A DNA stretch of 61,510 bases, the filler included, from Dugesia japonica (lineage: Eukaryota), in the NCBI GenBank assembly GCA_001938525.1. It is 4 parts of 4 records of this genome, joined end to end, with 100 filler letters (N's around TTAATTAATTAA, not from the genome) between each part and the next. Parts side by side here need not be neighbours in the genome. Positions count along the whole stretch, not along the records: positions 1 to 11,000 come from MQRL01637250.1; 3 more parts are not named here. One strand, given 5' to 3'. This document shows, in pieces, positions 1 through 52,960 of this stretch (positions within the stretch are counted from its first letter, which is position 1; the number at the start of each line of letters is the position of its first letter). A program made the translations under genes and the position numbers. The notes below the pieces were generated by a model that was not told where the DNA came from, did no database searches, and was given only the letters and a program-made list of their open reading frames with translations.

Positions 1-159
1 TTGGCAATCGATCAAAAGTCCTTACGTGATTGATTGGTAGATCGCGATTGACGTTATTGACACCCCTGATATATATTATTTAATTTCTACTAATCAGCTA
101 TATTTATTTTAAAAATAAGATACAATGGATGGACAAGTGTGACAATTAAAATAAATAAA

Positions 160-320
160 TAAGTATTTTGCAATTGCAATTATTGCGACAATAATTGTTG
201 GACGTAACCACTGATCGTTTTTTGAATTCATTTAAAATAAAAGCTTCAATCAAAAATTGTATTTTTGAGATTGAATCAATATTTTGACTTTGTCTTCGTC
301 AGGAATTGACTTTTTTTGCT
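160..320 (-). repeat. Copy of dispersed repeat with hammerhead-like core (Penelope pLTR/retrozyme-like)
   Basis: Reverse complement reads CTGACGA-A-GAC-AAA-GTC-AAAA (GAAA mutated). Flanks are shared with copies at ~1960-2040, 4585-4910, 18486-18615 and 43560-43775. Confidence 0.55.
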
Positions 321-329
321 ATATATATA

Positions 330-670
330 GTGAATTAGGCGTTAAATACTTTGCTTTTTTGATTTAATACGAAAATATCGAAAGACTTTTTACTCAATCC
401 AGTAAAATCAGAAGTTAATCTTTCTTGACTTTTCTAAAGTTCTTCAAATGCTTTCTTCCTTAATTAACTTACAAGATATTTAGTACTAAATGACGCGTGT
501 TTAGTTGTAAAGTGTTTCTCCAAATTTGAATTCTTTCTATGCACCAATATTTCCTGACAAATAAGACAGGCCAGAAGGTCATTTAAGTTTCGAACAAATA
601 CGAAAATTTTAGTCTAAACAACTTTAAATTCACGTGTTTCGACTTTCGTTTTTTTGTAGCCACATTAAAT
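330..670 (-). pseudogene. hAT (Buster/SPIN/GTF2IRD2-like) transposase N-terminal zinc-finger fragment
   Basis: Manual minus-strand translation gives FVRNLNDLLACLICQEILVHRKNSNLEKHFTTKH (CxxC...H...H), with stops downstream. Confidence 0.6.
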
Positions 671-2987
671 CAGATTGCATACAAAAGTTATTTCATTTTA
701 TAATAATAAAGATACAAACACAAAATAAATACAATTTTCAATGTATGACAAAATTATTTGTTGTATTTATAGCTGGTTGAAAACAATGCAGATAACTTCT
801 TGCTTTGAGTAGGGTACTTTTGGTACCAACGTGCAACTTGCAGATGTGANNNNNNNNNNNNNNNNNNNNNNNNNNNNNNNNNNNNNNNNNNNNNNNNNNN
901 NNNNNNNNNNNNNNNNNNNNNNNNNNNNNNNNNNNNNNNNNNNNNNNNNNNNNNNNNNNNNNNNNNNNNNNNNNNNNNNNNAAACCTTTTTGAGACCGAG
1001 TAAAAAGACTAAAAAATAACTGGCTAATATAAATTCATTGTAAAACTTTGAAAACAATTTATCTTGATAATTATTTGTTTCTAAAAAAATCGAACGAATT
1101 CCGTTCCCTAATTTTTGTCATTTAACTACCATTCATGAATATTAATGATTTTCATGTTTCGATACCGTTTTGCGTGCCTATTAATAAATAAATATTTTTT
1201 ATATTTTCAGCTGACCAGAATTAGCCCATCCCTGCTCTAAGGTAACAAAAAACGGTGGTGGTTGGATTTTTGAATCCAAGGTTATGAAGATATTTACGTC
1301 AGGTTGAAGGATTGAATTAGAAACATAAAATGAGTATCGTCATAAGATGAATGTCAAAATAGAATGGCAAGGGAATTGGTAAATGCAACTCTTCGAGAGA
1401 GAAACTTCAGATTGGGCCGAGATATTACAGGAGGTAGAAATCGAAAAATTATGCAACGAAGCAAAAAACAACACAAAAGAGAATGTAAAAGAAATGTAAT
1501 ATGAAGAAAAATTTGTTGTTTGAATATCCTACTTGATTTTTACAGAGTGGAAAAAGCTTGAATTAAACGTTTTTTTTCTAATGCAATTTTTCGCGAAATT
1601 TTAAAGTTTTACGAGTATTTCATTTCATTTTATTTCATTGTAATTTTATAGAACGGTAAATTTTAATATTGTACATTCAAGAATTANNNNNNNNNNNNNN
1701 NNNNNNNNNNNNNNNNNNNNNNNNNNNNNNNNNNNNNNNNNNNNNNAAGGAATATTCAATAGAAATTGATGTATGTATACCTCACAAATGCAACATTAAT
1801 AGGTTAAAAAGTTGATCATCAAAATATTTTTTAAAAAACCTTCAAAATGAAAATAATATTAATAAAATTAAATCTCATCATTAACCAATAACTTATTTGA
1901 ATTTACAATATTTTCTTTTAATACAATTAAGATATCAATTTCTTAACGTTATTTACAAATATTTTATAATTACAATTATTGTGAGAATAATTGCTGGACT
2001 TAACCATTGATCGCATTTGAGATTTCATTAAAATATTTATTTATGTAACAAATAAATTTTTTTTAAAAATTGAGATTTTAATGTGACATGAACAGTACAC
2101 ATATTACATATAACGATAAAGATAAGAGCAGAAAACAATTTCCTTTAAATTAAATAACTAAGTAACGAGTGATTTGATTAATTTAATATTGATTTGTACT
2201 AATAATTTTGTTTGATTAGTTGCGATAAAAAATGAATTTCTTTAATATCTATTATTTAATTCCCTCTCTATATAGAGGTAGCACAACAAATATAAACAGA
2301 AATCCTCAGATCATTTCCCATTCGACTAGAACATAAAGGAAAATTATGATTAAATTTTAGATTTATAAATATGAAAATACGAAAAATATTTTTCTAAATT
2401 ATTACGTAATTAGTCGTTTAAACAAATTAAAATTTTTATTAAAATTTTTTTATTTGATTAAAATTTCTTAAATTAATAATCGTTTTTAAAATTTTAGTCT
2501 ATTAATTATAAACAAATTTATTAAAAAATCTTTTTGATAAAATTCAAGTCATTTACTTTATGTAAAAAATATTTGAAAAATTCATTAAAATTACTAAAAA
2601 TTCTAATTAATATTTTTACGGATAGTTTTTCAAAAAAAGATGAATTTTTTACCATTTAAAAATATATTTTAATTAGGCATGTGTATCGAGAATAGAACAA
2701 TCCCTATATTTCATTAATCAATTATTATTTTTAAATTAATATTTTATCAATATTAATTAGCTCATCNNNNNNNNNNNNNNNNNNNNNNNNNNNNNNNNNN
2801 NNNNNNNNNNNNNNNNNNNNNNNNNNNNNNNNNNNNNNNNNNNNNNNNNNNNNNNNNNNNNNNNNNNNNNNNNNNNNNNNNNNNNNATAAACAAATTCCA
2901 TTGATCAGTTGTTGGAGCAAATTTTATTGTCATTTAATTTCAATTGGTTGAATGGATTTGCTAAATAAAAATTTATTTGATAATTCT

Positions 2988-2994
2988 TATATAA
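2988..2994 (+). promoter_or_regulatory. Candidate TATA box of bHLH gene
   Basis: TATATAA ~30 bp upstream of ATG 3024; weak evidence in AT-rich DNA. Confidence 0.3.
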
Positions 2995-3023
2995 GGCCAA
3001 GAGAAAATTAATTTATTATTGAA

Positions 3024-3488
3024 ATGAATGAAATAGAAGATTGCTGCGGATCGACTGCTATTAGTCAGTCAGAATCGGATTCAAATCAAAATACCATGAT
3101 GATTAATAAAGTAAATGGACAAAAATATTCTACTGACAGACGATATGCTGACAGTATTTTCAAACCATTAAGATTGAGTATAAATGCCAGAGAAAGACGT
3201 CGAATGCATGATCTGAATGATGCATTAGATGAGCTGAGAAGTGTTATTCCGTATGCCCATAGTCCATCAGTGAGGAAATTGTCAAAAATTGCTACTTTAC
3301 TTCTAGCGAAAAACTATATTCTAATGCAAGCGAGTGCTTTAGAAGAATTGAGAAAAACAATAATGATAATGAATAACAGATACCAGTCAAGAAGTTATTT
3401 AAATAATATAAAATACGAACATTCTACTCAGAAAATTGCAAATAAAGAGTTACAATCGGATAATATATCTATTCAAAAACATCTCTGA
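3024..3488 (+). CDS. bhlhe22/23: bHLH transcription factor, BHLHE22/BHLHE23 (Olig/Beta3, Drosophila Oli-like) family
   Basis: [54 protein letters not shown] is the family signature. Uninterrupted ORF with AATAAA at 3545-3550. Confidence 0.95.
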
Positions 3489-4584
3489 CATCGATTTTTA
3501 TTACTATTATAATAATTATTAAGTGAAGTTTGTAATTTTATGAAAATAAATGTTTACTTGAAGATATCTGATTTATAGTTATTTTGTTGTTAAGAAATTG
3601 GTATTTAATGAATTTTTTTTGGAAATTTTTCATCAATTAATTTTGGTGTAATTGTTTTTTCAATAATAATCCTTGGATTTTTCTTAATTTTATATCTTAA
3701 TATCAAAGTTGATATTTGAAAACTAAAAATTCAAAATGGTTTGACAATAAATAAAAATGATAAATTAAAATTTTTATTTCCTCTTTTTTTACTGATAGAA
3801 GTGTTTTTTTNNNNNNNNNNNNNNNNNNNNNNNNNNNNNNNNNNNNNNNNNNNNNNNNNNNNNNNNNNNNNNNNNNNNNNNNNNNNNNNNNNNNNNNNNN
3901 NNNNNNNNNNNNNNNNNNNNNNNNNNNNNNNNNNNNNNNNNNNNNNNNNNNNNNNNNNNNNNNNNNNNNNNNNNNNNNNNNNNNNNNNNNNNNNNNNNNN
4001 NNNNNNNNNNNNNNNNNNNNNNNNNNNNNNNNNNNNNNNNNNNNNNNCAATTTAAATTTTTTTTATTTTAAAATAGTACAAATTGCACTTTTTACATATT
4101 ACGTTATATATTTTTGATTTTCCATGTACAAAAATCTCCCGGATAAGTACGCAAATAAAATGAAAAAAATTGGATCATTATTTCATTTAAAATAATTTAC
4201 AAATATTTTGTGCCTTGAATGATTTGATCGACATGTCATTTGCAAAAGATTTTGCTTTTGAAATAACTCGTATTGGTGGAACTGGTAGCTGAGCTCTTCA
4301 CTTCCCTTCAATTCACAGAAACAACTTGCCTTTAAGTTTTGAATACTGCAAAATGAAATGTTTTTCTTTTCGTTTTCTTCGACAAAAGAGCTGAGCCTTT
4401 TCCTACGATGTTTTTGTTTGACTGAAGTTTTCAGTAAGCTCATAATATGTTGCTAGAGAACGTTTACTTGGAAGATTTTGTGTGGTGAGCTATTCAATAA
4501 TTTCATTTTTTTCTGCTTCACTTAGGCGCTTCATTTGGAATAAAGATTTTTTACCAACCAAGTTATGTAAACAATAAACGTAAT

Positions 4585-4910: not shown

Positions 4911-5933
4911 CGTAATATCTGTACAGACGATTTGACTCTTTCGTTGATATTATGTGTAGACCAAAGAAGAATACACGTATCAGTATGATACTGACAAGTT
5001 ATTGCATCATATTGCACAATATTTAAAACAGAATTTATGTTAATTAAGAATTTTACCTCCACCGCCAATATGCGTACTTAACCGGGAAATTAATGCATTA
5101 CAAATAATTTCATATATATATATATATATATATATTCAAAAACATATTGAACAAATTGCTTTGATCTAAATAAAATGAGGAAACGCAATTTTTTAAAACA
5201 TTTATTCGTAAGACATTTTTCGGACAAATCTATGTTCGTAATCAGTTACTGTGGTTAAATAACAAGGAAATTGTTTATTTACTGGCCAATAAAACCTGTT
5301 ACGTTATCAATCCAATAAAATAAGATTAATTTTATAAGATAAACTTGCTAAACTTAAATTAATGTTTTATATTTCTGATTTTAATATTCAAAATACAATA
5401 ATAAATCATTCAAACTATACTGTAACTGATAATGAATTTGATCTCTTAAAACTTGGCCCATCACATTGTATTAAATATAAAATAGATGAACTTAATCTTA
5501 AGGCTCAAATTGAAGCGGCATTTTCTAAATTGCTCCTTTCAGAGAGTTCAAATAAACANGATTTGCTAAATAATAAGTTTAATATTCAATCCTCTGTTAC
5601 TAAATTTATTAACAAGAATAAACACCTTAATTTTAAGGATGAAAAAATATTGAAATGAATAAAAAAGAAAGATTTGAGAATTTGCAAATTTGATAAAGGT
5701 GTTGGAGATCCACCTGAGTCACTTAACAAAAAGTGGTTGGCTGAGGAAAAAACAGCCCTCAGGGGACCATTTCAAGAATTTAACCTAAAGCCCCTAGTTT
5801 AGGTATTCAGTGTAGATTGGTTGACTTCCTACTTCATGTGAGGTGCACACACGTACACCTTTAATTTGGGTTCATGATTTTCCCTTAAATAATTCAAACA
5901 AAACATCATTTCAAAGCATCTATTATTAAAACA

Positions 5934-6883
5934 TTATAATTCATCCAAAACGCCAGGGTCGAGCCACTGGGCTGGGTCAGTTAACAAGAAATTGAACGAA
6001 GCTAGGTCATCGTTGTCGTCNCATTGCTCCCAAGTGGNNNTCCCGCCAAGTTGGCGGGAGAGGTCAGAAATATATTGTTTTAAGAAGTCAATTTTCCTTT
6101 GCAAGGATTGTTTAATCTCCTCCTCGAGGGCTTTTGTTTGGATAGCTAGCTCACTTTGTTTTTTAACTATCATATCAAGTTTCTTCATCAGTTTATCTCG
6201 CTGAGTAAGATGATTTAGGAGTGCCCTGTCTGTTTTCCGTTTAAGGTGCCTTTCTACTAAGAGACGGCGTATTATTCTGTGACAACGTCGAATACTATTT
6301 GAGAAGATAATTTAAGGCACTGAAAGAAAATTATTAATGACATTCATATTTCGTTCATGATAAAACTAAATATAAAGACGGAAATAATTCAGACGAAATT
6401 AAACACAATAGACAAATATATTAGATTGCAGTAAAACAAGGTTTACGAACGAGAGGTCTGGACCCCTTTATCCACCATCAGTGATATTAGGGGCATGATT
6501 TTTCTCAAGTTCATAATATCACCCACCAGTTTATTCTCTCGGTCTTGGTTGGACCGGATAATATCGGTAAGGGNNNNNNNNNNNNNNNNNNNNNNNNNNN
6601 NNNNNNNNNNNNNNNNNNNNNNNNNNNNNNNNNNNNNNNNNNNNNNNNNNNNNNNNNNNNNNNNNNNNNNNNNNNNNNNNNNNNNNNTCGCTTGGCCAAC
6701 TTATAGAGATCCCAAGTGATCTCGGTTTCGTCACTAGAAGCCCTCACTTTCTTGGTCGGGGACGCAACGCGATTCAGTGAGGAGTGCACTAGAAGAAAAC
6801 GAAATTGAGTAAACACGATAAAAAGATTGGGTGAATAGCACCAACCACTTACACCTATGGTTACTCAGTGGACATTTATTCAT
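5934..6883 (-). pseudogene. Predicted 3-exon gene: NLS, basic region plus leucine-zipper-like coiled coil, acidic tail (one in-frame TAA, N gap)
   Basis: Exon 1 6883-6853; intron GTAAGT...TTCTAG 6852-6789 (64 nt, frame preserved); exon 2 6788-~6451; intron to TTTCAG 6320; exon 3 6319-5934, in frame with ORF 5934..6188. Confidence 0.55.
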
Positions 6884-6992
6884 CGTTAATGTTATTTTTA
6901 ATAAAAGGAAAATTTACGTGACAAAAAGATTTGGTTAAAATTCCGGAACAATTATGTATTTTATTGTAACACACCAAAAAAAATATAAATCA

Positions 6993-7340
6993 CTAATGAG
7001 TAGGTGCTGAATCAGCCACGGGTGCGGTATTCTCTGAATCTTCGCTACCCGAGGGTTCTCTTACATCCCATAATAAATTGTTAATAAATGCCTGCACCGC
7101 TGGGGATGTGGGTAAAGGTTGGTACTGAAACGACGTGGCAAGGGTTTGGGCAGGCCCCGTCCAGTTCTGGTAACTTTGTCGTTCACCAAAGTCTTGGATT
7201 CTGGCCACCATGGCCTCTATCGGAGGTAAGTTAGACCGATCGGATAAAATACCGGCATCCCGACGATGAGGGTTTCTATGTCGTCGGAAAATGATGCGAC
7301 GAGTCCTGCGGTCAATCACTCATTCCCATATTGATTCCAT
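6993..7340 (-). CDS. Small Arg-rich hypothetical protein within insertion (stop near N-terminus)
   Basis: MESIWE*VIDRRTRRIIFRRHRNPHRR...; AATAAA ~30 nt after the stop codon. Confidence 0.35.
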
Positions 7341-10300
7341 TCTGGAACATAAAATTGAATTTATCATAACATGCGAGTATATTCATCAGTAAACAGATCA
7401 GATAAAAATAAGAAATAAAAATTTAAATTAGACATTTGCTCAGGCTTGAATTTTTTATTTCAATTAAATTAATTGTATTATCGCAAAGACCCTTCTTCCT
7501 CATCTACATCTACTTTCGCTGTCAACGGAAACATCTCGGTGAAGCAAATCAAATCCGTTTCGTCAGGATGCAAAATCAGGCTGGGAGCTATGAGATGCCC
7601 GATTAATTGCCTTTTGCGTTATCGTTCGCGCTCTCGTTGAATGAATTGGAGAGTCGTTAAGAGTATATCCGACACGGAATATCTGAAACAGATTCACATT
7701 ACTATACCATCCGTAAGAAATCATTATTCCCACAAATTTTACTGGTAGAAGTAACACTCGTGACTTTACTATAATCGAAAATGCCAAGAATAAATTCACT
7801 CTATGGAGTTCTCACGAACCTGAATATAATAGTTAAGGTGAGTAGCAGGGATAGACGCAATAGCACTATTTCCTTTTTCCCATAATTTTAGTAAGATTTG
7901 CTTCCACAGGATCCAGCTAATAATGCTAGTCAATGGTATCAGTGGTGATGCCAGTGAAAGGAATAATATGAGTTTTAATATCACTAATAGTAAATGTTTT
8001 AACCATCAACTAATACACTAATAGTATATCCATCTATTATTATTTTAATATTTCTACTGAGGTTTATAATATCTATATATGATTATATATCATTATTATA
8101 ATGTTATTTTAATGTTATTATATGTTGTTAGATATAGTTATACTCATAATTATTTATAATTATTTTTATTCCTCTTATATTAGTTGTTAAAAAACAAATA
8201 CAAATATTTGGTCTTATAGTGTGATTTTAATTTTAATTAAAATTGGGCGTTACTGGTTACCTAGCACCTCGAAGGTCATATCTGGTTTGGTGGTAATAAT
8301 TCCGATACAAACTGGCGCGTAGAAAAATAACTGTGGGTGTGCTGGATAACAGACTAATGTTATTTTATAACGATGATTAAAATAATTTATCACTATCACT
8401 ATGGTAGTAATTTTTGTTAGTTAATATACCTACTATGTCGACTTAATTCACTGACGATGTCAGTCAGTCATTGCATATACATATTAATCTTCAGTTGAGA
8501 TTAGCTTTAACAAATTTACTCATTTTTTTCAGATAAAGCTTGTAGCTTGGTAGTAAATTGATCTATGCGTGATAACTAATCACGGTTTTTTTTCAACGAT
8601 TATAATGGTGGTAGAATTTCGTTGATAACTGTTCTCGGATAATTGTCAAATTCGCGGCTTTTGATTTGAATTTTTTAGTTATTTGTGGTTTGTAGTTGTT
8701 TTTTTGTAGTTGTTTCTGCTAATTCCATGATTCATTTTATAAGATTTTTCTTCACACCCCAACTTCTTTCATATTCGCTGGTTATTTTTAATTCGAGTTT
8801 ACTGCTTCCTATTGGTTCTACTGGCAATTTTCTGAAATTTTTTCAGAGTTTTAGAATTATAATTGGCGGTTATTTTTAAATCATCAGGTGAGGCTTAGTG
8901 CTTTGTTTTATTTTTNNNNNNNNNNNNNNNNNNNNNNNNNNNNNNNNNNNNNNNNNNNNNNNNNNNNNNNNNNNNNNNNNNNNNNNNNNNNNNNNNNNNN
9001 NNNNNNNNNNNNNNNNNNNNNNNNNNNNNNNNNNNNNNNNNNNNNNNNNNNNNNNNNNNNNNNNNNNNNNNNNNNNNNNNNNNNNNNNNNNNNNNNNNNN
9101 NNNNNNNNNNNNNNNNNNNNNNNNNNNNNNNNNNNNNNNNNAAATAGTTATTTTGATTAATGATTTTCTTGTTTTTATTATTGGTTTTGGTAATTTTCCT
9201 AATTCATGTGGTTGATGAACATCATCTTTATTCGCCCAATTTTTTCTATGGCTATCTTCTGAATTTTCATTCTTTTAAGGTTTATATGTAGCGTCTGGTT
9301 TATGACCGGGACTGTTTTTTTCTAACGGGCCCTTGTGACGCCCTTACTATTCTTCTTTACTGATTGGAGCTTATGNNNNNNNNNNNNNNNNNNNNNGTGT
9401 TTCGCCCCAACAAAGGCAATAGACTAATTATCATGAACAAGAATGATTATAACAGTAAAATGATGATGATATTGACTGCAAATAAATTTGAACGATTAAA
9501 CCTAAGAAAGAATATCGTACCATCCTCAATTAATGATGAAAATCGACTATTAAAATTTTAAATAAATTAAAAAAAGGAAATCACATAAATAGTTTAATTT
9601 CAAATTCTATATTATGCTATGGAAATCAGCCTGCAAAGCTTTATGGCTTACCAAAAGTACATAAACCTGACGTCCCTTTAAGACCCGTTTTATCAATGAT
9701 AAACACAGTGCAATACAAAGTTGCTAAAATACTTGAAAAAATGGTTAAACCATTAATATTTAATGAGACACTGTAAGGATACTTTTGAATTCATAAATTT
9801 CTTAAAAAATAAACAACTGATCTGAGATAAGGGAATTACGGTTTCATTTGATATAGTTAATCTGTTCACAAACGTTCCTATAAATGAGACTATCAATATA
9901 TGTGTTGATCTCTAGGAAAATCATTACGCAAATTTAAACTATAAATTTGATAAAACAGCTATGAAGGAACTGTTGAACTTTTGCTGTAAAGATGTTAATT
10001 CTTTATTTAATAATAATTGGTTCTCTCATAAAGATGGTGTTGCAATGGGTTCTCCGTTGGCACCGACATTAGCTTCATTATTTTTGTCTAAATTAGAGTC
10101 ACAAATTACTAATTTTTTCGTTACTCAACCCATAGAATACAAAATATACGTAGATGATATCTTCCTTATTTTTAAAGATCAAGATGATATACTACCTTTC
10201 CTTGAATATATGAACAGTCTTCATCAAAATATGAAATTCACTATAGAAGTTGAAAAAGAAGGTAAACTATCATTCTTAGATGTTCTTGTTTGTAGATAGG

Positions 10301-11000
10301 GTTGCAACTAAATACTTCACTTTATATAAAATCAACAGACACAGGAGTTTATACCACTCCTAAAAGGTTTTGTGATGATCGATATAAGAATGGATTAATA
10401 AAAGGTTTGGTTCATCGAGTGTGGTATATATCATCAAGCTAATGGATATTATCAAAAAATGATGTATAATAATATAAGGAGTACTCTAAAAAAACTGGGC
10501 TCAACATCAAATAATGACCAAGAAGAAAACATTAAAAATAATCAAGACAAATTAACTATAAAACTATTATTCTCGGAAGGATTAAAATCATTAAAATGCT
10601 CCCTCATGAAATTTTTTGATGATAATAAATTTAGATTTATTTTCACTTCAAAGAAAGCCTCAAGTTATTTAAGTAACAAATCTACTACACCAAAAGCTTT
10701 GATCGCTAACCTAGTATATCAATTTAATTGTAACGGGTGTGATGACACATACATTGGAGAGACAAAACATCATCTTCACACACGTGTTAGCGAGCATATG
10801 CAATTGAGTAGGAAAAGTTCGGTTTTAGATCATGCCTGTTGCTGCAAAAAATAGAAAAGGCAAAAAAAGAATTAATGAGATTACAGTTTTGAACAGCGGT
10901 TTTTGTGACTATTTTGAAAGAATGGTGTGTGAAGCTTTGATAATTGGGTTGCATAATCCGATTCATAACACTCAAATTGACACACATTCACTTTTAAGTT

Positions 11001-11100
11001 NNNNNNNNNNNNNNNNNNNNNNNNNNNNNNNNNNNNNNNNNNNNTTAATTAATTAANNNNNNNNNNNNNNNNNNNNNNNNNNNNNNNNNNNNNNNNNNNN
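11001..11100. other. Artificial contig linker
   Basis: 44 N + TTAATTAATTAA (stop codons in all six frames) + 44 N. Confidence 0.9.
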
Positions 11101-11235
11101 TATGATATGTAAAGGTTCCATAGTAATATGGTCAATTATGTTTAAAGGTTCCATAGTTATATGGTCTATGATATGTGAAGGTTCCATAGTAATATGGTCA
11201 GTTATGTTTAAAGGTTCCATAGTAATATGGTCAAA
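11101..11235. repeat. ~33-bp minisatellite, about 4 units
   Basis: Recurring AAGGTTCCATAGT(A/T)ATATGGTC. Confidence 0.9.
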
Positions 11236-11399
11236 ATGTGTCAAAGATGTCTAATATGTGCTAATTAATATAAAAAAAATGTCATGTATTGAATAAGTAA
11301 CAGTTGTCTTGGAATTCCTGACCATTTTGCGGATCTGAGTCTACTCAACTATTGACGATGATGACTGATTATTTTTTTTAAAACAATTGTAGCGGTGTT

Positions 11400-11630
11400 C
11401 AAATATGTCCGAATGTGAACGGATAGAAATACTGCTACCGGAGATGCACATACTGTAATTGAGCTTAGTCTTGTTAAAACTACGCAAGCTAATCAATAAG
11501 TTCAATTATGAGCGGACTCGAATTGGATGCTAAAGATCTTGATGGATTCGCTCCGTCGAACTGTACATGTCGGAGGAGGTAATGTAATGGTATGGAAGGT
11601 AAACAAGACTGTTACTGAAACATTCATGAA
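11400..11630 (+). pseudogene. Tc1-like transposase relic
   Basis: VGGGNVMVW resembles the Tc1 GGGSVMVWG motif. Confidence 0.4.
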
Positions 11631-11779
11631 AATAATTAATAATAATTAAAACTAATCTACATAATAAAAAGAAANNNNNNNNNNNNNNNNNNNNNNNNNN
11701 NNNNNNNNNNNNNNNNNNNNNNNNNNNNNNNNNTGCATAAATATATAAACTGTCCATAACATGCATAAATTTCTTCTAA

Positions 11780-12050
11780 TATTATCTTAAAAAATATTAA
11801 GACTGCCCATATCTTGTTATAAAATCTTAAAAAAATATCAAGACTGCCCATATCTTGTAATAATATCCTAAAATATCAAGACTGCCCATATCTTGTAATA
11901 ATATCCTAAAATATCAAGACTTCCCATATCTTGTTATAAAATCTTAAAAAAATATCAAGACTGCCCATATCTTGTAATAATATCCTAAAATATCAAGACT
12001 GCCCATACCATGCATAAATATAGAGACTGCCCATACCATGCATAAATAAA
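11780..12050. repeat. ~38-41-bp tandem repeat
   Basis: Recurring AAGACTGCCCATATCTTGT units. Confidence 0.9.
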
Positions 12051-13239: not shown

Positions 13240-15420
13240 ATGGACTATTTAAAAACTATAAGTCCTCCATTCATCATATACGCTGATTTTGAATCAGTAT
13301 TATTACCGGATGAAGATTATCATAAAAAACATTTACCTATTACAGCTGGACTTTTGCTAGTTAACAATTACACTAAAGAAACAAAATATCAAGAATTTAT
13401 CGGAAACGACTGTTTTCAAGTTTTTGAAAGAGATTGAGAAAATCAATAAGAATATAGTATATTCATATTATATGAATAATGGAAAAAAGAAGATGAATAT
13501 AACTCTGGATCAAGAAATTTCTTTTGCTGCTACCAAAACATGTCATTTATGTGAGAAATTATTAATAAATCCTGTTAGAGACCACAATCATTTACAGGGG
13601 AATACATAGGTGCAGCATGCAACAGTTGCAATTTAAGCAGAAGAATGAATACGCAATTACCTGTTGTATTCAATAATTTAAGAGGATATGACATGCACCA
13701 TATTCTTAAGAATGGACTCTGTCAACTCCCACATTGGAACCTCAGCTGTATTCCCACTACAAGTGAAAAGTTATTGTGTCTTATTGCGTATCAAACGAAA
13801 TCACCTACCATTCGATTTATTGATTCATATTAATTTATCAATTCATCTATGGATTCAGCTGTTAAAATTATCAAAACAACTCCTTTAACCTTACAGGAAT
13901 TTATCGACAGCAAAATTATAATGACAAAAAGGATTTCCCCATAAAATCACGCTTTCAGTTTACAAGTCTTTGTTAATACAAAGGAAATACCACTAAAGTG
14001 GGATGGATGATGAAGAACATGAAAAATCTGTAGAGATGTGGAAAGTCTTAAAATGCAAAAACTTGCTGGACTATATGTAGGTGTACATGAAGTTGGACGT
14101 CTTTTTCCTAGCTGACGTTTTTCAGCAATTCCAAGCCAAGTCATTAGCTCACAACCGTCTGAAACACTTAAATTTCTTTTGCATTCCAGGTATGAGCTGG
14201 GCATCTGCTCTGATGACACCATGTTATATCAGATGAAAACACNNNNNNNNNNNNNNNNNNNNNNNNNNNNNNNNNNNNNNNNNNNNNNNNNNNNNNNNNN
14301 NNNNNNNNNNNNNNNNNNNNNNNNNNNNNNNNNNNNNNNNNNNNNNNNNNNNNNNNNNNNNNNNNNNNNNNNNNNNNNNNNNNNNNNNNNNNNNNNNNNN
14401 NNNNNNNNNNNNNNNNNNNNNNNNNNNNNNNNNNNNNNNNNNNNNNNNNNNNNNNNNNNNCAATGTGCTCCAGGAAGCAAGGTCAAGAAATTAATGTTGA
14501 CTCATTATTCAAAGTTCAATTACGTAGTGCACTGAAGATTACTGCAAATGTACTTGCAATTAAGAATGCAAGTTACAAATGTTCACATGGCAGTTAGATT
14601 TACACAAGATCATATTTTCAAGCAATATATCGATGAAAACATCAAATTAACGGCTGAAAGTGTGAATGAATTAGATAAAAATTACTATAAGCTCATGAAC
14701 TACAGCTTGTATGGCAAATCAGTTGAAAATCTGAAGAAACGAATAAACTTGAGAATATGTAATTCAGCAAAGAAGTTAGTGACCTATATATCAAAACCAT
14801 GGTTTACAAGAACCATTAAGATCGATATAGATTTAATAGCGGTACAATTAAATAAAGACATTGTGTGTCTCAAAAGACCGAGTTAATTAGGACTGACTGT
14901 TCTCGATGTAAGCAAATTACGAATGTATCGACTTCAATACATTGAGTTAGAGAAGTATAGGAAACAAGAAAATTGTGCGATAGCAATAGTAGCTGGGGAT
15001 GCCGATAGTTTTTTTCTTAGAGGTTAGGAACATTAAGTTGGAAAAGTTATTGTCACTGATGGTAAAAGACCGATTATTAGATACTTCAAATTACTTACCA
15101 GACCACACTCTTTATAACATGGAACTCAATTCGGTGGTAGGAAAGTTTAAGGACAAAAATAACGGAAGGAAATATAAAGAATGGGTTTTCCTGAGACTGA
15201 AGTGTTATGGCTTACTTAGCGAGAAGGAATCGATGAAGGCTAAGGGCATAACATTAAATGGTACGAACATAAATCATCAATCGTACTTTGATTGTTAGAA
15301 TAACAGACAATTTAGAATAAGAACGAAAAACTACCAGTTGTACAGTTTCTTAAAACCAAAAGTCGCATTAACTAATAATGATGACAAAAACATAAGCATA
15401 CCATACGGGCATTATTCTAT
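13240..15420 (+). pseudogene. Polinton/Maverick protein-primed family B DNA polymerase (degraded)
   Basis: YADFES; CHLC..VRDHNH..GAACNSCN (endonuclease VII-like); NLRGYDMH; IRFIDSY; KLMNYSLYGK; GDADS; GKFKD; KAKGI. Confidence 0.92.
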
Positions 15421-15927: not shown

Positions 15928-16892
15928 TTCCTCCACATGGCAGGGTAGATACAACATTACTAAGTTCACTCAATGTATTAGATTGAAATGTTGATAGTAA
16001 TTTTACATCGTTAGCTAGTAGTAACTGAGTAGTTTTCATACGAGCATTTAATAATTCATTAATAACAACATTTTTGGTGAATGTGTGATTGTCATTTAAA
16101 ATCGTTTCTTGATAAACAGATAAATAACTAATAGATTTCAGGAATTTTTAATAATTACAATCAATACAATAATTTGATAGAACCTTATATTTTAATGAAA
16201 TTTTAGGAATTGTTTTAAAAATAAATAATATTTTAATTTTACTTAAAAAATAAATTAATATTTTCAAAGACATTTAATTGAAAAAAGTTTAAAAACCATT
16301 CTCGCTGATAAAAGCCTTAAAATTATTTATATTTTTGAAATTTTCAATTCTCTATCTTTTTTAATTACTTTTAAAAATTAGAATAAATGTAATTTTAACA
16401 TTTTTTAGAGAAAAGATTAATTGTAGTTTTGATATTTTAAAAAAAATAAAAGTATTTTATTCAAAATGTTTAAATATATTACAAATTTTATGTTGATTAA
16501 AACACTTTTAAAAAAAAATAATGTTAAATATAACTCAAATTTTAGTACATTTTAATGATTTTGACTTTATTATAAAATTCGATCCAAAACTTTATTAATT
16601 CATATTTTTTATGTAAAATTATCGTAATTTTTAACAAATTCTAAATTTAATATTAACATTTTCTAATTTTGTCATTTATTGAGTTTAGAAATAGAATTTT
16701 CTAATCTTATAATTCTACACAATTATGAAATAAAGCTTTATAAAATTTCAATTTATGCTTTAATAAGTTTTATTTTACTTTATTTTTATAATTATTATTT
16801 GTAATTTAATTTAATTTAAATTTATTATTTTTGATTATATTTAAAACAAAATAATAAATTTGTTTTAATTCCAACAATAATTTGATCTTAAA

Positions 16893-18431
16893 ATGGAAAA
16901 ATTTTGTACAATATGTTTTGAAGTGGTTAATGAAAATTACGCAACAGTAAATGAGTGTAATCATGTGTTTTGTTTTAATTGTTTGAATAATATCATAATT
17001 ACACATAATCCCAAATGTCCATTGGANNNNNNNNNNNNNNNNNNNNNNNNNNNNNNNNNNNNNNNNNNNNNNNNNNNNNNNNNNNNNNNNNNNNNNNNNN
17101 NNNNNNNNNNNNNNNNNNNNNNNNNNNNNNNNNNNNNNNNNNNNNNNNNNNNNNNNNNNNNNNNNNNNNNNNNNNNNNNNNNNNNNNNNNNNNNNNNNNN
17201 NNNNNNNNNNNNNNNNNNNNNNNNNNNNNNNNNNNNTTCAACAAAGGAGAACGAAAATACAGATGTATTGAAACTTTATCGATCAATCAGAATAATATAT
17301 GGCTTAGCATTCAGACCGATAGCAAATCTTGAAGAGATATTCCAGTCCGAAGAAACTTCTCCGCTTTTAGTAAATTTAAAATACTGGGGCAGATTAACTT
17401 CTAGTGTCGATTATTTAAATAACCGTTTACTATTAGGCGGATTTAGAACTACAAATAATTGGTTACATGAAAATAAAGATAAAATCAAAATGGAAATTCA
17501 AAAACGGAAAGAAATATTTCCAATTTTAAATGCATTTATTATTTCCTATCCAGTTAAGAATCAGTTTATCTATAAATCTCTCTGCCCTAATAATGACACG
17601 AGAAACATAAATCAATGTTTGATTTGTTTAAATGAAGTAGATAAAAATATTTATGGAAAATTTAAAACTTGCAATCATAAATTATGTTTGAAATGTGTTG
17701 AAAAATATTGGATTTCTCATGGAAACTGTCCATTGGATTCTGAGAGAAGTGAAGAATTTAATATAAAGATTCATGACAATCATGATTCGCGAGAACAAAT
17801 CGATATGGCTCATGATTATTTATTGGGAAATTGTGAAAAAATTATTTATAGAAATATTCACGACTTAATCAATGATAAAATCAGATTAATCGATAAAATA
17901 TTGAACAACAAAGAAGATTTCTTTAAATATGTAAAGCTATTGATTTGTTCATATCGAAACATCCGAGAAAAAGAAAATGGTCAAAGTGAAATAAATTATT
18001 TTGCAGACTTCAAATGGAATCCTGAAATATCGTGTTTGTGGGAACAATATAAATTGTGTCTAATAAAAGAAGATCCTTTTCATCACTTCACCAGGAGATT
18101 TTGTTTACATTATTCTGAAAATACTTATCAAAATATTTTTGAATTGTTTATTAATATTAACGAAAAATATTTTTATATATTTTTGGATTTTGATTTTTAT
18201 TTTAAATTGGAATCTCAGCACAGTTGCAAAAATAGAATAAGAGGAATATTCGAGTTGAAAAAGTTTATTGGATATATTTATATGAACATCGATTGGAGCG
18301 TTTTAACGGAAACTGAATCTTATCATCAATCAATGAAATCATTCATCGATTTCTTAGGAAGTGTTAGTGAAATATTATCCAATGATGATTTGATCAGAAA
18401 TGATTTGTTATATGATTTATTATTATTGTAA
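16893..18431 (+). CDS. Intronless protein with two C3HC4-type RING fingers (putative E3 ubiquitin ligase)
   Basis: CTIC..CNHVFCFNC..CPL and CLIC..CNHKLCLKC..CPLD. About 1.2 kb is stop-free after the N gap; frame across the gap is unverified. AATAAA at ~18440. Confidence 0.8.
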   Translation: MEKFCTICFEVVNENYATVNECNHVFCFNCLNNIIITHNPKCPLXXXXXXXXXXXXXXXXXXXXXXXXXXXXXXXXXXXXXXXXXXXXXXXXXXXXXXXXXXXXXXXXXXXXXXXSTKENENTDVLKLYRSIRIIYGLAFRPIANLEEIFQSEETSPLLVNLKYWGRLTSSVDYLNNRLLLGGFRTTNNWLHENKDKIKMEIQKRKEIFPILNAFIISYPVKNQFIYKSLCPNNDTRNINQCLICLNEVDKNIYGKFKTCNHKLCLKCVEKYWISHGNCPLDSERSEEFNIKIHDNHDSREQIDMAHDYLLGNCEKIIYRNIHDLINDKIRLIDKILNNKEDFFKYVKLLICSYRNIREKENGQSEINYFADFKWNPEISCLWEQYKLCLIKEDPFHHFTRRFCLHYSENTYQNIFELFININEKYFYIFLDFDFYFKLESQHSCKNRIRGIFELKKFIGYIYMNIDWSVLTETESYHQSMKSFIDFLGSVSEILSNDDLIRNDLLYDLLLL

Positions 18432-19294: not shown

Positions 19295-20375
19295 AAATTA
19301 ATTACCTTTTGTAATTTATGGTGATTTTGAAAGTTGAACTAATTCCAACACAAATAAACCAAAACCTTTATCACTTGGAATTTACATAAAAAGTAAATAT
19401 CAACATTTAATTAAAAATGAATATAAAGTATTTTATGGAGAAAACATACACGAACAGTTTTTTGGATTTTTAGAAGAAATTACCAAAGAAACTATCATTT
19501 CCATATGAATATGTAAAAGGAGAAAATATTAATCAAGTGATTCAATTATTAAAATCAAATAATATTCCAACAAGAGAAGATTTCAATAATAAACTAAAAC
19601 AACAAAAAATAAGTGATCAAGAATATAATGAATTTATACAAGATTTTAATCAATTTGGGAATTTATTTGATTATATGATGTATTACATGAAATTAGATGT
19701 AATTATTTTAGCAGAATTCTTTGAAAACTTTAGAGAGATTTGTCTAAATAATTATCAAATAGATCCTAGTTATTGTTATTCTGCACCAGGATNNNNNNNN
19801 NNNNNATGAACAAAATTTACACAAGTAAAATTAAAATATGCAAAAGAAGATACATACAACACATTTTTAAAAATAGAAAGAGGGGTTAGAGATGGTTTCT
19901 CAGGTTTTTATGGAGAAAGACAAGTATTTATTCATAATAAAAATGAAAATCCTAGTTATAAAATATTAAATAAAGCTCAATTTGAAGATTAAATAAAATT
20001 AATGAAAGAAGGAAAAACAATTCCAGAAGAATATTTTGAGGATACATTTATAAAATATTTAGATGAAAATTCATTATACGCATCTTGCATAACTAAGCCT
20101 TTACCAACAAGTAGAATTAATGAATCTGATAACTTAGAATATAAAAAATCAACAGATAAAATAAATTACATTTTTGAAGTTGATTCATGAAAAAACAAAA
20201 TATTTTCCTTTAGCACCAGATAGAATAAATATAACTGAAGAAATGTTAGGACCATATCAACTAGGTTTTAATAAGAAATTATCTAAGAAAAATGTAAAAT
20301 TAACTTTAAACCAATTTGACAAAGAAAATTATATAGTTTTAGGAAGTACATTAAATTTGTTTTTAAGTTTTCAAT
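19295..20375 (+). pseudogene. pPolB fragments (second Polinton family; internal deletion and C-terminal truncation)
   Basis: LPFVIYGDFES; FPYEY; YMKLDVIILAEFFENFR..IDPSYCYSAPG; YLDENSLY; FPLAPD. Confidence 0.9.
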
Positions 20376-20379
20376 TGCT

Positions 20380-20534
20380 TTAATCGTAGGCTGTTGTTGT
20401 GTAGTTAAAGAATCTTGTAAAGTTTTTGATTCAATTACTCCTGTAGTAAATAAATTATCATAGTCATCTTGAGCTTTAATTAATTCTTTCAAAAGTTTTA
20501 TTCTTTCTGTCATTTGTTCACCATCCATTTTCAT
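20380..20534 (-). pseudogene. Truncated Polinton accessory ORF
   Basis: Overlaps the stop of the upstream ORF; QQQPTIKAIE fuses into the antisense of polB at a deletion junction. Confidence 0.4.
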
Positions 20535-20997
20535 AAAGTTTTAAATACAAACCACCACCTTTTACTTTAACTAGTATTCTATTTTTAAAGTTTTTAGTAA
20601 TCATCTTCAACTCTGAGTTTGGTAAACTATTTTTTAAATATTTATGAATTGCGCTTCCTTGATAAGGTTTTAAATATAATCCACTTCCAGTTTTATTTTC
20701 ATGTGCTTCTTCTTTTTTAATTTTATTTTCTAAACCTTTTTTCTGTAATTCAACTAACTCATTTTCTTTTTGTTTTTTAATTGCATCTCTGGAATTACTT
20801 ACTGTACTTGCTACCACGGTAGCAGCTATTATCCCAGGAATTAAAGGAAATAATCCACCTTCATGTTCTTTTGATTTCTTTTTTATTTCTTCTTTAACTT
20901 GTTTAGCAATCCAATAGTTTTTACCATTAATTTTTACAGATTTACATTTATTTGAATTTACAAAATCAATTAATTCTTGTTCTGATATTGAAGACAT
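20518..20997 (-). CDS. Polinton virion core/membrane-active-like protein (adenovirus pX-like hydrophobic segment)
   Basis: EGGLFPLIPGIIAA followed by two G(S/G)GLYLK repeats; ORF intact. Confidence 0.6.
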   Translation of the reverse strand: MSSISEQELIDFVNSNKCKSVKINGKNYWIAKQVKEEIKKKSKEHEGGLFPLIPGIIAATVVASTVSNSRDAIKKQKENELVELQKKGLENKIKKEEAHENKTGSGLYLKPYQGSAIHKYLKNSLPNSELKMITKNFKNRILVKVKGGGLYLKLYENGW

Positions 20998-21282
20998 TTT
21001 GTTAAGCTAAATATTTTTATTAATAAAAATGAAATATGCTGATAAGGAAAGTATAATGGAGAAAGAAATAACATATTTTTTCAAGATATAAATAATTTAG
21101 AAATTTTTATCGAAGATTATAAATTAGTAATTTTTTTAAACATATATATGAATATATTAAAAGATTTAAAAATGAAGATTTGAATTTAAAGATGAAATAA
21201 GATTTAAAGGTTAAAAGATGATGTAAGATTTGGAAATAAAGTTGAATTTGAAAATATAATTGAAACTGAAACTCCAAAAGGT

Positions 21283-21783
21283 ATGTATGTATTTAAACCT
21301 GAATCTAGATCAATACTTGAATATAATGTTAAACGTGAAATTCCCAAAGAACTCGAAAATATGGATAAAGTATTTATTGAATATAAACTAGAACAATCAT
21401 TGCCTTCAACAAGTATTCAATCTAGAAATAAAGATTTCAAAGAATTATTTTTAAAATCCTTCAAAAGTATGGAAAATGATTTACCTGAGATTATACCTAT
21501 TGAAAAGAATACATGTATAGATTCATTAATTATTAATATTAAAACATTAGATTCCAATTTAATTAATTTTAAAAATAAATCAAATGATGATTATTATAAT
21601 TTAAGAAGAGACTATAAAATTTTAGCTAAAGGAGTTGAAAGAAAAAAACATGAACTTTTAAAAATATTACAAAATAATGATAATAAAAATTCTTATCTAT
21701 ATATTACTAAATTATTGAAATATTATAAGTTATGTAAACATTTCCCAATTTTATTTAATTGTACATTATCTTGGCATAGATAA
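21283..21783 (+). CDS. Polinton hypothetical protein (probably extends past the stop)
   Basis: 166-aa ORF inside the element; no motif recognised. Confidence 0.45.
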   Translation: MYVFKPESRSILEYNVKREIPKELENMDKVFIEYKLEQSLPSTSIQSRNKDFKELFLKSFKSMENDLPEIIPIEKNTCIDSLIINIKTLDSNLINFKNKSNDDYYNLRRDYKILAKGVERKKHELLKILQNNDNKNSYLYITKLLKYYKLCKHFPILFNCTLSWHR

Positions 21784-24157: not shown

Positions 24158-24540
24158 TTAGTTCGTTCCTCCACCTAAAATAATTTTACCTTTCATTGCT
24201 AATTTTAATAAACCTCTTTGTATTTTTTCAGAAGTAGTTGGGTTTTCAATTTTGTTCAAATCATGAATTAAATTTACATTAGCTAAATGTCTATCTCTTA
24301 AATCTTCTGATTTATAAAATAAATCATGTTTTAAAGCCGCTTCATCAACTCTATTAATAGGTTCTTCTACTGGTTTTGGATTATTATTTTCATCTAATCT
24401 TATATCTAATCTTGTTCCAGGGCCAGTATAATTATGTTTAAACAAATTTCTTTCTCCTGGATACTTTTCCCAAGTAAATGATTTTAAAATTGCTGAAATT
24501 AATTTAGAAGATTGAAGATCTCACCCTTCAGTCTTTTTAC
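24158..24540 (-). CDS. Parvovirus VP1u-type phospholipase A2 (adintovirus PLA2X-like)
   Basis: YPGERNLFKHNYTGPGT (Ca2+ loop) ... VDEAALKHDLFY (catalytic HDxxY); 5' end degraded. Confidence 0.9.
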
Positions 24541-30055: not shown

Positions 30056-30155
30056 NNNNNNNNNNNNNNNNNNNNNNNNNNNNNNNNNNNNNNNNNNNNT
30101 TAATTAATTAANNNNNNNNNNNNNNNNNNNNNNNNNNNNNNNNNNNNNNNNNNNN
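30056..30155. other. Artificial contig linker
   Basis: N-TTAATTAATTAA-N, 100 bp. Confidence 0.9.
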
Positions 30156-50850: not shown

Positions 50851-51339
50851 TAAAATTACCATTAAAATGAGTAGATACATGTTATAATGACAAGCTTAGT
50901 ATCGTTGGACTCGTAAAAGCTTGAATACATAACTGCTATCTCAGAATTGTAACATAATGTTTTAGTCGCGGTGTTTTAAAGATTTAAAGTGTAAATGTCG
51001 CGCACAGAATCACATTTTTATCTTATATTAGACATTCTCTATTAGATTTGTTAAAGCTGAGGATTTAATGTCTTCCAAATATTGAATTAGAGAGATACCG
51101 TAAGGAGAAGAATTTTTCTAAACGTAATGTTAGATTCCGAGGGTGAAGATATCTAACTAAGATTTTCTGATTGAAAATTAATTTTTAAAAATGCACGTAG
51201 GTAATAGTTATTTATTTATAAACTAATTTTATAATAAATAACAATAATTTAATTAAGAAAATGATGTATTAATAAAAATCTTTATTGAATATAACAAAAT
51301 AATTACACTTGTATAAATATCATATTCATATAAATGAAA

Positions 51340-52080
51340 ATAGAATAGATTAAGTTTTGTGATATTCCACATTTCCACCGCTTTTTTGTTTTCATCTTCA
51401 TTAACTTCATCCCATCTCGGTGGCATGGATTTTGTATCTTCCAACACTTGCAAACTTGTAGCAAGATTATACGGGAAAATACCCTTTGTTGTATTTATAT
51501 TATTATTTTTAAATTCATTTACAGTTAATGGTGTTGATCCTAGAGATTTAACTGTTGCATCTAGCGAGGAATTTATAAATTGATAACTATCAATAAACTT
51601 GATAGTCGCAGTTTTACTCTGATGTACAATCAGACATAGAAATTGTTCATTAGTTGTCGGAATACAACTCAGATTCCATTTTGGAAATTTTCTTAATCCG
51701 TATTTTAGAACATGATGAAGATCACACCCTTTTAAATTGTGAAATACAACTGGTAGCTGTATTAATTATCGTCTGCTTAAATTACATTTTGAACAGGCTG
51801 TTCCTTTAAATTCACCTGTAAAATGGTCATGATCTCGAACGGGGTCGATTATCTCCTTTTTACACAAATAACAAATTNNNNNNNNNNNNNNNNNNNNNNN
51901 NNNNNNNNNNNNNNNNNNNNNNNNNNNNNNNNNNNNNNNNNNNNNNNNNNNNNNNNNNNNNNNNNNNNNNNNNNNNNNNNNNNNNNNNNAAAAATCATAT
52001 ATCCAATCATTTCCAACAAACTGGCTGTATTTCGTTTCATTGGAAAAATTATTTACCAACAACAGTCCAGCTGAAACCTC
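51340..52080 (-). pseudogene. pPolB N-terminal/exonuclease fragment, same family as 13240-15420
   Basis: AGLLLVNN; CYLC..VRDHDH.TG..GTACSKCN; FHNLKGCDLH; IKFIDSYQF; KGIFPY. Confidence 0.9.
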
Positions 52081-52860: not shown

Positions 52861-52960
52861 NNNNNNNNNNNNNNNNNNNNNNNNNNNNNNNNNNNNNNNN
52901 NNNNTTAATTAATTAANNNNNNNNNNNNNNNNNNNNNNNNNNNNNNNNNNNNNNNNNNNN
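52861..52960. other. Artificial contig linker
   Basis: N-TTAATTAATTAA-N, 100 bp. Confidence 0.9.

What the first reader, a model, noticed from the sequence alone, without database searches (positions are those of the whole stretch)
5934..6883. Spliced regulator-like gene hidden in the insertion (NLS, LC8-type motif, zipper, acidic tail)
Seen: ATG 6883 and a canonical 64-nt GTAAGT..TTCTAG intron that joins in frame (MNKCPLSNHRLHSSLNRVASPTKKVR). After the gap an open frame ends in VDKGVQT. A second intron to TTTCAG(6320) leads to RRCHRIIRRLLVERHLKRK, near-heptad leucines (L-AIQTKA-L...L-QRKIDF-L-KQYISD-L) and an acidic/aromatic end (DDNDDLASFNFLLTDPAQWLDPGVLDEL). Known: xQT motifs such as DKSTQT bind dynein light chain LC8 in viral proteins. 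Inference: an element-encoded bZIP-like transactivator or anti-silencing factor. Retained introns in a putative retro-LTR suggest it is transcribed antisense to the element RNA or that the element moves as DNA. One in-frame TAA (6314-6312) and an N gap weaken the model.
Basis: partly seen in the sequence, partly recalled or inferred. Interest (0 to 1): 0.75.

Follow-up and report, generated by a model that had tools for sequence, protein, structure and literature searches.

The report
Spliced genes inside a solo LTR
A 3.7-kb end-repeat left behind by an animal jumping gene carries two small intron-containing genes of unknown family, broken in this copy but not at the same places in its sister copies, which suggests the element brings its own regulator inside its end-repeat.

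Summary
The gene lies in a 3,713-nt insert (5700-9412, TGTTGG...CCAACA, 4-bp duplication) that splits a Penelope-like ORF and has no second repeat: most likely a solo LTR of a many-copy family. The gene looks real at family level. GC drops at 7 of 7 exon borders tested. The stop at 6314 is absent from 92% of sibling depth. A second spliced gene lies just upstream, and its two premature stops are also private to this copy (3 of 3). A diverged relative keeps the exon-2 frame with mostly third-position changes. Against: three RNA runs (5.2 billion letters) gave 10 partial reads and no splice joint. No homologue was found, and the frame across the N gap is unproven. The protein is not a bZIP member. 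It has a coiled coil, a strong LC8-type motif and an acidic tail. Best reading: an LTR-borne nuclear accessory protein, dead in this copy, probably a dimeric regulator of its own element; function and antisense orientation are inferred. It is a new variant of known retrotransposon accessory genes, unusual in lying wholly inside the LTR.

The parts
5700..9412 (.). 3,713-nt insert, TGTTGG...CCAACA, most likely a solo LTR; orientation of the parent element unknown
   Evidence: ends; no direct repeat between the ends; 2,535 DNA contigs laid on 6041-9375
5696..5699 (+). left copy of 4-bp target duplication AAGG
9413..9416 (+). right copy of 4-bp target duplication AAGG
5338..5699 (+). 5' part of the decayed Penelope-like ORF that was hit
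   Evidence: flanks read in one frame (...ICKFDKGNRLII...) across the empty site
9413..10854 (+). 3' part of the decayed Penelope-like ORF (RT, GIY-YIG-like)
   Evidence: RVT_1 E 1.7e-9; GIY-YIG E 0.014, under its cut-off
6853..6883 (-). gene B exon 1 (ATG 6883)
   Evidence: no difference listed in the ATG among the 40 rows shown
6789..6852 (-). gene B intron 1, 64 nt, GTAAGT..TTCTAG, 47% T
6688..6788 (-). gene B exon 2, part before the gap; NLS-like PTKKVR at 6759-6742
   Evidence: GC 0.52; the motif alone is weak
6574..6687 (.). gap of 114 N; frame across it unproven
   Evidence: one DNA contig links 6556 to 6703 with unknown letters between
6451..6573 (-). gene B exon 2, part after the gap; core 6525-6559 shared with a far more abundant relative; LC8-type VDKGVQT at 6475-6455
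   Evidence: (tables 2, 7)
6320..6450 (-). gene B intron 2, 131 nt, 48% T (alternative 6446-6295, 152 nt)
5934..6319 (-). gene B exon 3: stop private to this copy at 6314-6312; basic segment 6293-6225; coiled coil about 6221-6048; acidic/aromatic tail 6020-5937; stop 5936-5934
5860..5865 (-). ATTAAA, candidate poly(A) signal of gene B
   Evidence: consensus match only
7491..7682 (-). gene A internal exon; stop private to this copy at 7621-7619; start exon not located
   Evidence: (100% of depth, 23 contigs, differs at 7620)
7342..7490 (-). gene A intron, 149 nt, GT..CAG, GC 0.23, joins in frame; weak donor
6993..7341 (-). gene A last exon; stop private to this copy at 7322-7320; stop 6995-6993
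   Evidence: (99% of depth, 30 contigs, differs at 7322)
6884..6992 (-). 109-nt A/T-rich spacer between genes A and B with AATAAA at 6965 and no AG

Best explanation
The insert is a solo LTR of a many-copy Ty3/Gypsy-type retrotransposon of an AT-rich animal genome. It integrated into a Penelope-like ORF and lost its internal region by LTR-LTR recombination (inferred). The LTR carries two small spliced genes in tandem, A and B, probably in U3 and antisense to the genomic RNA, so that their introns and poly(A) signals pass unseen through reverse transcription (inferred). In intact family members gene B makes a nuclear protein of roughly 250 residues. LC8 binds VDKGVQT and clamps two chains, the helix behind it forms a coiled coil, a basic part holds DNA or RNA, and the acidic/aromatic tail recruits host factors, most simply to raise transcription of the element from its own LTR (all inferred from anatomy). 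This copy died after insertion. Shown: ends, duplication, many sibling copies, exon/intron composition, three private stops, a frame kept in a diverged relative. Not shown: RNA, protein, binding, orientation.
For: Ends, duplication and in-frame empty site; no second repeat. GC drop at 7 of 7 borders, 0 of 200,000 random sets. 3 of 3 premature stops in the model frames are absent from 92-100% of sibling depth, against 5 such hits on the other 177 stop codons of the six frames; 0 of 23 listed exonic differences makes a stop in a model frame. None of the 12 indels shown (of 16) lies in 6041-7796. A far more abundant relative continues exon 2 in frame with 8 of 10 third positions changed against 3 of 10 first and 3 of 10 second (table 7, read by hand; Fisher p about 0.013 by hand). 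LC8 consensus fit, and [DS]K..QT occurs 2 times in 117,624 six-frame residues, this site included. One long helix with hydrophobic a/d positions. Precedent for antisense, nuclear accessory proteins of LTR elements (passages).
Against: No expression seen: 1, 6 and 3 reads, all only partly aligned, and no joint in three RNA runs (1,592, 1,888 and 1,749 million letters); tissues unknown. No homologue in any protein or DNA collection searched. The exonic differences between this copy and the majority are 16 non-synonymous to 4 synonymous, which is neutral-like and shows no purifying selection by itself. Only 40 of 222 differences were shown. The frame across the gap is off if the gap is exact. Sibling depth follows GC (Spearman 0.55), so higher depth over exons is not evidence. 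Gene A's frames were partly recognised after seeing the table. No gag-pol was seen, so Ty3/Gypsy and the orientation are inferred.
Confidence: 0.5

Rival explanations
1. Same real LTR-borne gene, but the protein handles RNA or particles rather than transcription: a Rev/CERV-like export factor for unspliced genomic RNA, or an LC8-dimerised adaptor for transport.
For: Arg-rich helix, 10 K/R in 23 residues, fits RNA binding as well as DNA binding; CERV of Cer1 is a novel nuclear protein from a spliced mRNA needed for genomic RNA export (abstract); LC8 has viral and nuclear-transport clients (passages).
Against: The tail (8 D/E, 9 F/W/L, no K/R in 28 residues) looks like an activation domain (recalled pattern). 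No sequence likeness to any family.
Confidence: 0.17
2. Anti-silencing factor: the protein competes for LC8 or mimics an LC8-dimerised host silencing component and so relieves piRNA-guided repression.
For: In Drosophila LC8/Cut-up dimerises the PICTS complex through motifs in Panoramix and is needed for transposon silencing (abstract); strong motif here.
Against: That complex is described in Drosophila; the host here is unknown. LC8 is an abundant hub and one motif would not titrate it (inference). No RNA seen.
Confidence: 0.08
3. The insert is not an LTR but a non-autonomous DNA element with integrase-type ends (Ginger-like), or a deleted derivative of a larger DNA element, carrying captured spliced genes.
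For: TGT ends, 4-bp duplication and introns are Ginger features (passages); two compact genes with a 109-nt spacer resemble DNA-virus or Polinton layouts (recalled); Polinton-like debris lies elsewhere in the window.
Against: The inverted match at the very ends is 6 bp against 40-270 bp (Ginger1) or 50-180 bp (Ginger2), though 21 N lie 16 nt inside the right end; target AAGG is not CCGG/CCGT; no integrase or transposase in any of the six frames of 7346-8915 or the plus frames of 5700-7346.
Confidence: 0.13
4. Chance or long-dead frames in a GC-richer LTR; the family no longer makes, or never made, these proteins.
For: No RNA and no joints; no homologues; 16:4 non-synonymous to synonymous; gap frame off by the stated length; one long ORF arises in 4% of shuffles.
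Against: Composition steps at 7 of 7 borders; 3 of 3 private stops; third-position bias in the diverged relative, and 3 RNA reads of such a relative in run X12 (table 7).
Confidence: 0.12

Closest known systems
Antisense accessory ORFs of Ty3/Gypsy elements: maize Grande gene23, Retand TRP28 ORFs (PMC11963269, PMC7264820; passages) and Botrytis Boty-like brtn (seen only as a reference title, and in unchecked scan notes)
   Same: Extra gene of unknown function carried by an LTR element in many copies; nuclear localisation and a regulatory role proposed; gene23 has its own promoter.
   Different: Those lie between pol and the 3' LTR. Here two spliced genes lie wholly between the TG and CA ends of one LTR-like unit, so solo LTRs keep them. 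No TRP28 or other Pfam family passed its cut-off; animal-type host; orientation not established.
HTLV-1 HBZ / HTLV-2 APH-2 (passages; domain layout recalled)
   Same: Nuclear protein from an LTR-driven antisense gene; basic segment and leucine-rich helix.
   Different: No bZIP signature here; the acidic part is C-terminal; an LC8-type motif is present; the coding exons are inside the LTR.
CERV of C. elegans Cer1 (PMC10309623; abstract and outline)
   Same: Novel protein from a spliced mRNA of an invertebrate LTR retrotransposon; nuclear regulator of the element.
   Different: Sequences were not compared; CERV acts in RNA export; I did not see it described as encoded inside the LTR.
MMTV sag ORF in U3 (recalled, no call)
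   Same: Protein-coding sequence inside an LTR.
   Different: One ORF of a mammalian retrovirus, a membrane superantigen; here two intron-containing genes with their own poly(A)-like signals.
Burro giant Gypsy elements of planarians and plant Ogre (PMC6431247; passages)
   Same: Gypsy-type elements with multi-kilobase LTRs (Ogre 1.9-6.5 kb) and accessory functions; Burro is present in thousands of copies.
   Different: Their extra domains and ORFs are described in the internal region; the passages name no gene inside the LTR. No sequence link was tested, and the host here is not known.

Membership tests
solo LTR of an LTR retrotransposon | TG...CA ends with a short inverted match | tested here: met
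   TGTTGG at 5700, CCAACA ending 9412
solo LTR of an LTR retrotransposon | 4-6-bp target duplication with a clean empty site | tested here: met
   AAGG on both sides; the flanks read in one frame
solo LTR of an LTR retrotransposon | no internal gag-pol and no second repeat in the unit | tested here: met
   N gaps hide 361 of 3,713 nt in three runs
solo LTR of an LTR retrotransposon | same unit found as paired direct repeats round gag-pol elsewhere | not testable with these tools
   no genome held; longest listed piece of a contig 328 nt
Ginger1/Ginger2 DNA transposons | terminal inverted repeats of 40-270 bp | tested here: not met
   6 bp against the definition in PMC2836005; 21 N near the right end limit the view
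Ginger1/Ginger2 DNA transposons | Gypsy-like integrase gene | tested here: not met
   no such Pfam hit in the frames scanned; 9142-9412 was only translated by eye
bZIP proteins | basic region N-x7-R/K followed after 9 residues by a leucine heptad (signature recalled) | tested here: not met
   0 matches in the 90 residues of 6311-6042; no bZIP family at E up to 0.1 or 10
bZIP proteins | amphipathic heptad helix behind a basic segment | tested here: met
   helix 2-88 in a single-sequence AlphaFold2 model; L/I at 6 of 6 a/d positions in the last three heptads and 7 of 11 before, with one skip
LC8/DYNLL client proteins | [D/S]-K-x-[T/V/I]-Q-[T/V]-[D/E] motif | tested here: met
   V-D-K-G-V-Q-T-S fits 5 of 6 specified positions, misses D/E at +2, has the preferred Val at -5 (PMC3078936 passages)
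LC8/DYNLL client proteins | motif flanked by a coiled coil, in a disordered segment | tested here: inconclusive
   the helix follows in exon 3 if intron 2 is spliced as modelled; disorder was not predicted
LC8/DYNLL client proteins | measured binding to LC8 | not testable with these tools
   needs peptide binding or pull-down
antisense accessory ORFs of Ty3/Gypsy elements (gene23, Retand, brtn) | antisense to gag-pol | not testable with these tools
   no internal region in view
antisense accessory ORFs of Ty3/Gypsy elements (gene23, Retand, brtn) | located between pol and the 3' LTR | tested here: not met
   both genes lie inside the TG..CA unit
antisense accessory ORFs of Ty3/Gypsy elements (gene23, Retand, brtn) | kept in most copies of the family | tested here: inconclusive
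   3 of 3 stops private, no indel shown in 6041-7796, but only short contigs and 40 of 222 differences seen
Penelope pseudo-LTR | repeat of the element's own end, often with a hammerhead ribozyme (recalled) | tested here: not met
   the insert interrupts the ORF and has its own duplication; 0 Rfam matches at E up to 1 in 5000-12000
Burro elements | sequence likeness to Burro LTRs or polyprotein | not testable with these tools
   no eukaryotic repeat library on hand; the primary paper is not held

The most novel reading that the evidence does not exclude
An animal Gypsy lineage has moved a whole two-gene, intron-containing regulatory cassette into its LTR. Every solo LTR left by recombination then remains a complete gene able to act in trans on full-length copies or on host silencing, and one product uses the host hub LC8 as its dimerisation clamp.
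Probability: 0.3. Interest if true: 0.75.

Novelty: new variant of a known kind. Interest (0 to 1): 0.52.

Why it matters
Solo LTRs are usually treated as promoter debris. If these LTRs hold complete spliced genes, the many solo copies are a reservoir of trans-acting genes that repeat annotation would mask. The function of retrotransposon accessory genes is an open question in the reviews read (passages). Gene B gives a direct test through a short LC8-type motif, a coiled coil and an acidic tail. My searches (listings only, open-licence papers and preprints) showed no animal LTR retrotransposon with whole spliced genes inside the LTR and no retrotransposon-encoded LC8 client. Subscription journals and repeat databases were not searched, so the family may be described there.

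Tried and rejected
No RNA holder was listed among the indexed runs; this is not evidence either way. Protein searches: exon 3 gave 0 of 7 and 0 of 158 candidates, gene A last exon 0 of 1. HMMER over 1.84 billion representatives gave 1 hit at E 9.6e-4, an unrelated coiled-coil protein P0001. Viral contigs gave 0 of 44. Metagenomes gave 1 of at least 594, L001, whose ORF looks by eye like a pyruvate dehydrogenase E1 alpha subunit and is a chance helix match. Atlas top scores were 0.80 and 0.86, leads only. DNA patterns gave 0 matches in viral contigs and prokaryote genomes. Pfam hits on exon 3 are generic coiled coils under their cut-offs. Homodimer prediction of the helix: no answer, score 0.00, no evidence either way. 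No fold search was run, since the model is a single helix. Rfam: 0. Sibling depth over exons against introns was rejected as evidence because it follows GC. The 'up' row used a wrong frame and was redone. Trans-splicing of gene B behind gene A was rejected for this copy (no AG in the spacer). A-rich, coding-looking stretches on the minus strand of 7900-8915 gave no Pfam family. The planarian literature was read on a guess from base composition; the host group was not established. Earlier scan notes had nothing by place or sequence. No supplements were read; repeat libraries in supplements could hold this family.

Full report
Setting. The window is about 25% GC and full of decayed mobile elements; no genome is held. 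The finding lies in an insert from 5700 to 9412 (3,713 nt) that begins TGTTGG, ends CCAACA and has AAGG on both sides. With the insert and one AAGG removed, the flanks read in one frame; the downstream part has a reverse transcriptase (E 1.7e-9) and a weak GIY-YIG match, a Penelope-like layout (recalled). The two ends of the insert share no direct repeat, the inverted match is 6 bp, and no integrase or transposase was found in the frames scanned. Ginger transposons have TGT ends and 4-bp duplications but 40-270-bp inverted repeats (PMC2836005, passages). A solo LTR is the simplest reading. One DNA run laid 2,535 contigs on 6041-9375, with summed depth mostly 120-3,950 against 13-24 for the single pieces listed; the tool warns that this is no copy number, but the unit is clearly a many-copy repeat.

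Observation. All the features named are present at the stated places. Intron 1 is the only 1 of 24 GTAAGT sites in the window with a pyrimidine-rich AG 50-90 nt on. Exons have 41-52% GC (the 31-nt first exon 35%) and 22-26% T; introns, spacer and 3' end have 22-36% GC and 39-48% T. At 7 of 7 borders tested the exon side is GC-richer, and 0 of 200,000 random border sets reach the same sum. Two weak points stand. If the 114 N are exact, exon 2 does not continue into the VDKGVQT frame, so the gap must be inexact or hide an intron. Intron 2 has alternatives: 5 donor/acceptor pairs, among them 6446 to 6295, join in frame and skip the stop.

A second gene. Upstream on the same strand lie an exon at 7682-7491 and an exon at 7341-6993, joined in frame by a 149-nt A/T-rich intron with a weak donor; AATAAA follows at 6965 and gene B starts 109 nt after the stop. 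Its first exon was not located. It has no Pfam family or homologue.

Sibling copies. The model frames hold three premature stops. At each, most sibling depth carries another letter and has no stop: 6314 (92%, 11 contigs), 7322 (99%, 30 contigs), 7620 (100%, 23 contigs). The six frames of 6041-7700 hold 180 stops, and the 29 listed differences in that range touch only 5 times one of the other 177. None of the 23 exonic differences makes a stop in a model frame, and none of the 12 indels shown (of 16) lies in 6041-7796. The loose end at 6045 shows siblings spanning the small N runs of exon 3 in register and without a stop (read by hand). Limits: 40 of 222 differences were shown, and the exonic ones are 16 non-synonymous to 4 synonymous, as expected of a copy decaying neutrally, which is no proof of selection on the family. 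Better evidence comes from a more distant relative. The bin 6489-6600 has depth 58,932, and contigs match about 6525-6559 and then diverge. Read by hand in the exon-2 frame, the 30 letters beyond 6525 (56 contigs, agreement only 0.65, register approximate) differ from the window at 8 of 10 third positions against 3 of 10 first and 3 of 10 second (Fisher p about 0.013), keep 4 of 9 residues and have no stop. On the other side three consensus ends are open in that frame and differ from each other largely by synonymous changes; one comes from 3 RNA reads of run X12 (table 7).

Expression. Three RNA runs with the same species label (5,229 million letters read, likeness from 87%) gave 1, 6 and 3 reads, all only partly aligned, and no joint. 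Close copies are therefore silent or very rare in those samples. Tissues and strains are unknown, and transposon genes are often restricted or silenced (for one animal model: PMC8532177, passages). Splicing remains unshown, and this is the main result against the reading.

The protein. Exon 3 folds as one long helix in a single-sequence model, with L/I at 6 of 6 a/d positions in the last three heptads and 7 of 11 before, with one skip. A basic segment (10 K/R in 23) precedes it and a tail with 8 D/E and 9 F/W/L in 28 residues follows. The bZIP signature (recalled) is absent and no bZIP family is hit, so it is not a bZIP member, though it may work like a dimeric activator. [quoted passage not shown] [DS]K..QT occurs twice in 117,624 six-frame residues of the window, this site included. 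The NLS-like pattern is too common to count for much (187). No homologue was found.

How it most likely works. Shown: an LTR-like unit, many copies, two exon/intron patterns, private stops, a kept frame. Inferred: the genes sit in U3 antisense to the genomic RNA, which would explain why introns and an internal poly(A)-like signal survive reverse transcription. Protein B goes to the nucleus, is clamped as a dimer by LC8 and its coiled coil, and activates the element through its acidic tail. I put 0.85 on the genes being real in the family, 0.8 on the solo LTR and 0.5 on the whole statement. Antisense is not forced: Cer1 keeps a spliced accessory gene by exporting unspliced RNA (PMC10309623, abstract), which also gives the RNA-export rival (0.17). 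Anti-silencing (0.08) has a precedent for LC8 in Drosophila piRNA silencing (PMC7861614, abstract) but no support here. A non-autonomous DNA element (0.13) and chance or long-dead frames (0.12) remain.

Comparison and novelty. Antisense accessory genes with proposed regulatory roles are known in plant Grande and Retand elements and in HTLV (PMC11963269, PMC7264820, passages), and brtn in Botrytis (reference title only; unchecked scan notes). The plant ones lie between pol and the 3' LTR. Multi-kilobase LTRs are known in Ogre, and Burro elements carry accessory domains internally (PMC6431247, passages); the primary Burro paper was not held. An ORF inside an LTR is known from MMTV (recalled). 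The listings showed no animal retrotransposon with whole spliced genes inside the LTR and no retrotransposon-encoded LC8 client; subscription journals, supplements and repeat databases were not seen. Verdict: a new variant of a known kind, real at family level, dead in this copy, function inferred. Interest 0.52.

Noticed in passing
window 6525-6559: A 35-nt core of exon 2 is shared with a far more abundant, diverged family (bin depth 58,932) that keeps the frame and has a few RNA reads; it may be the live branch of the same gene.
   Followed up: partly
window 8729-8952: Depth spike (3,955 and 2,189 against 120-360 just before): a conserved LTR signal or another shared repeat.
   Followed up: no
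window 7900-9375: Minus strand strongly A-rich with coding-looking stretches, no Pfam hit in 7346-8915, and all 12 indels shown lie in 7797-9272.
   Followed up: partly
window 5712-5725: AP-1-like TGAGTCA close to the left end of the insert (motif recalled).
   Followed up: no
window 6798-7920: One DNA contig joins 6798 to 7920, a possible sibling lacking gene A and the start of gene B; 4 other single-contig skips are listed.
   Followed up: no
window 16881-18431: Intronless ORF with two RING fingers (zf-RING_2 E 2.1e-12), interrupted by an N gap.
   Followed up: no
window 14116-15298, 19474-19809, 20518-21783, 24158-24520, 51253-52194: Polinton/Maverick-like debris: polymerase-like pieces (by eye) and a phospholipase A2-like domain (PF08398 E 4.2e-7).
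   Followed up: no
window 36963-37868 and about 59000-59500: Decayed MULE-like transposase and integrase-like remnant (by eye).
   Followed up: no
window 11001-11100, 30056-30155, 52861-52960: Artificial scaffold spacers: 44 N, TTAATTAATTAA, 44 N; neighbours across them need not be adjacent in the genome.
   Followed up: no
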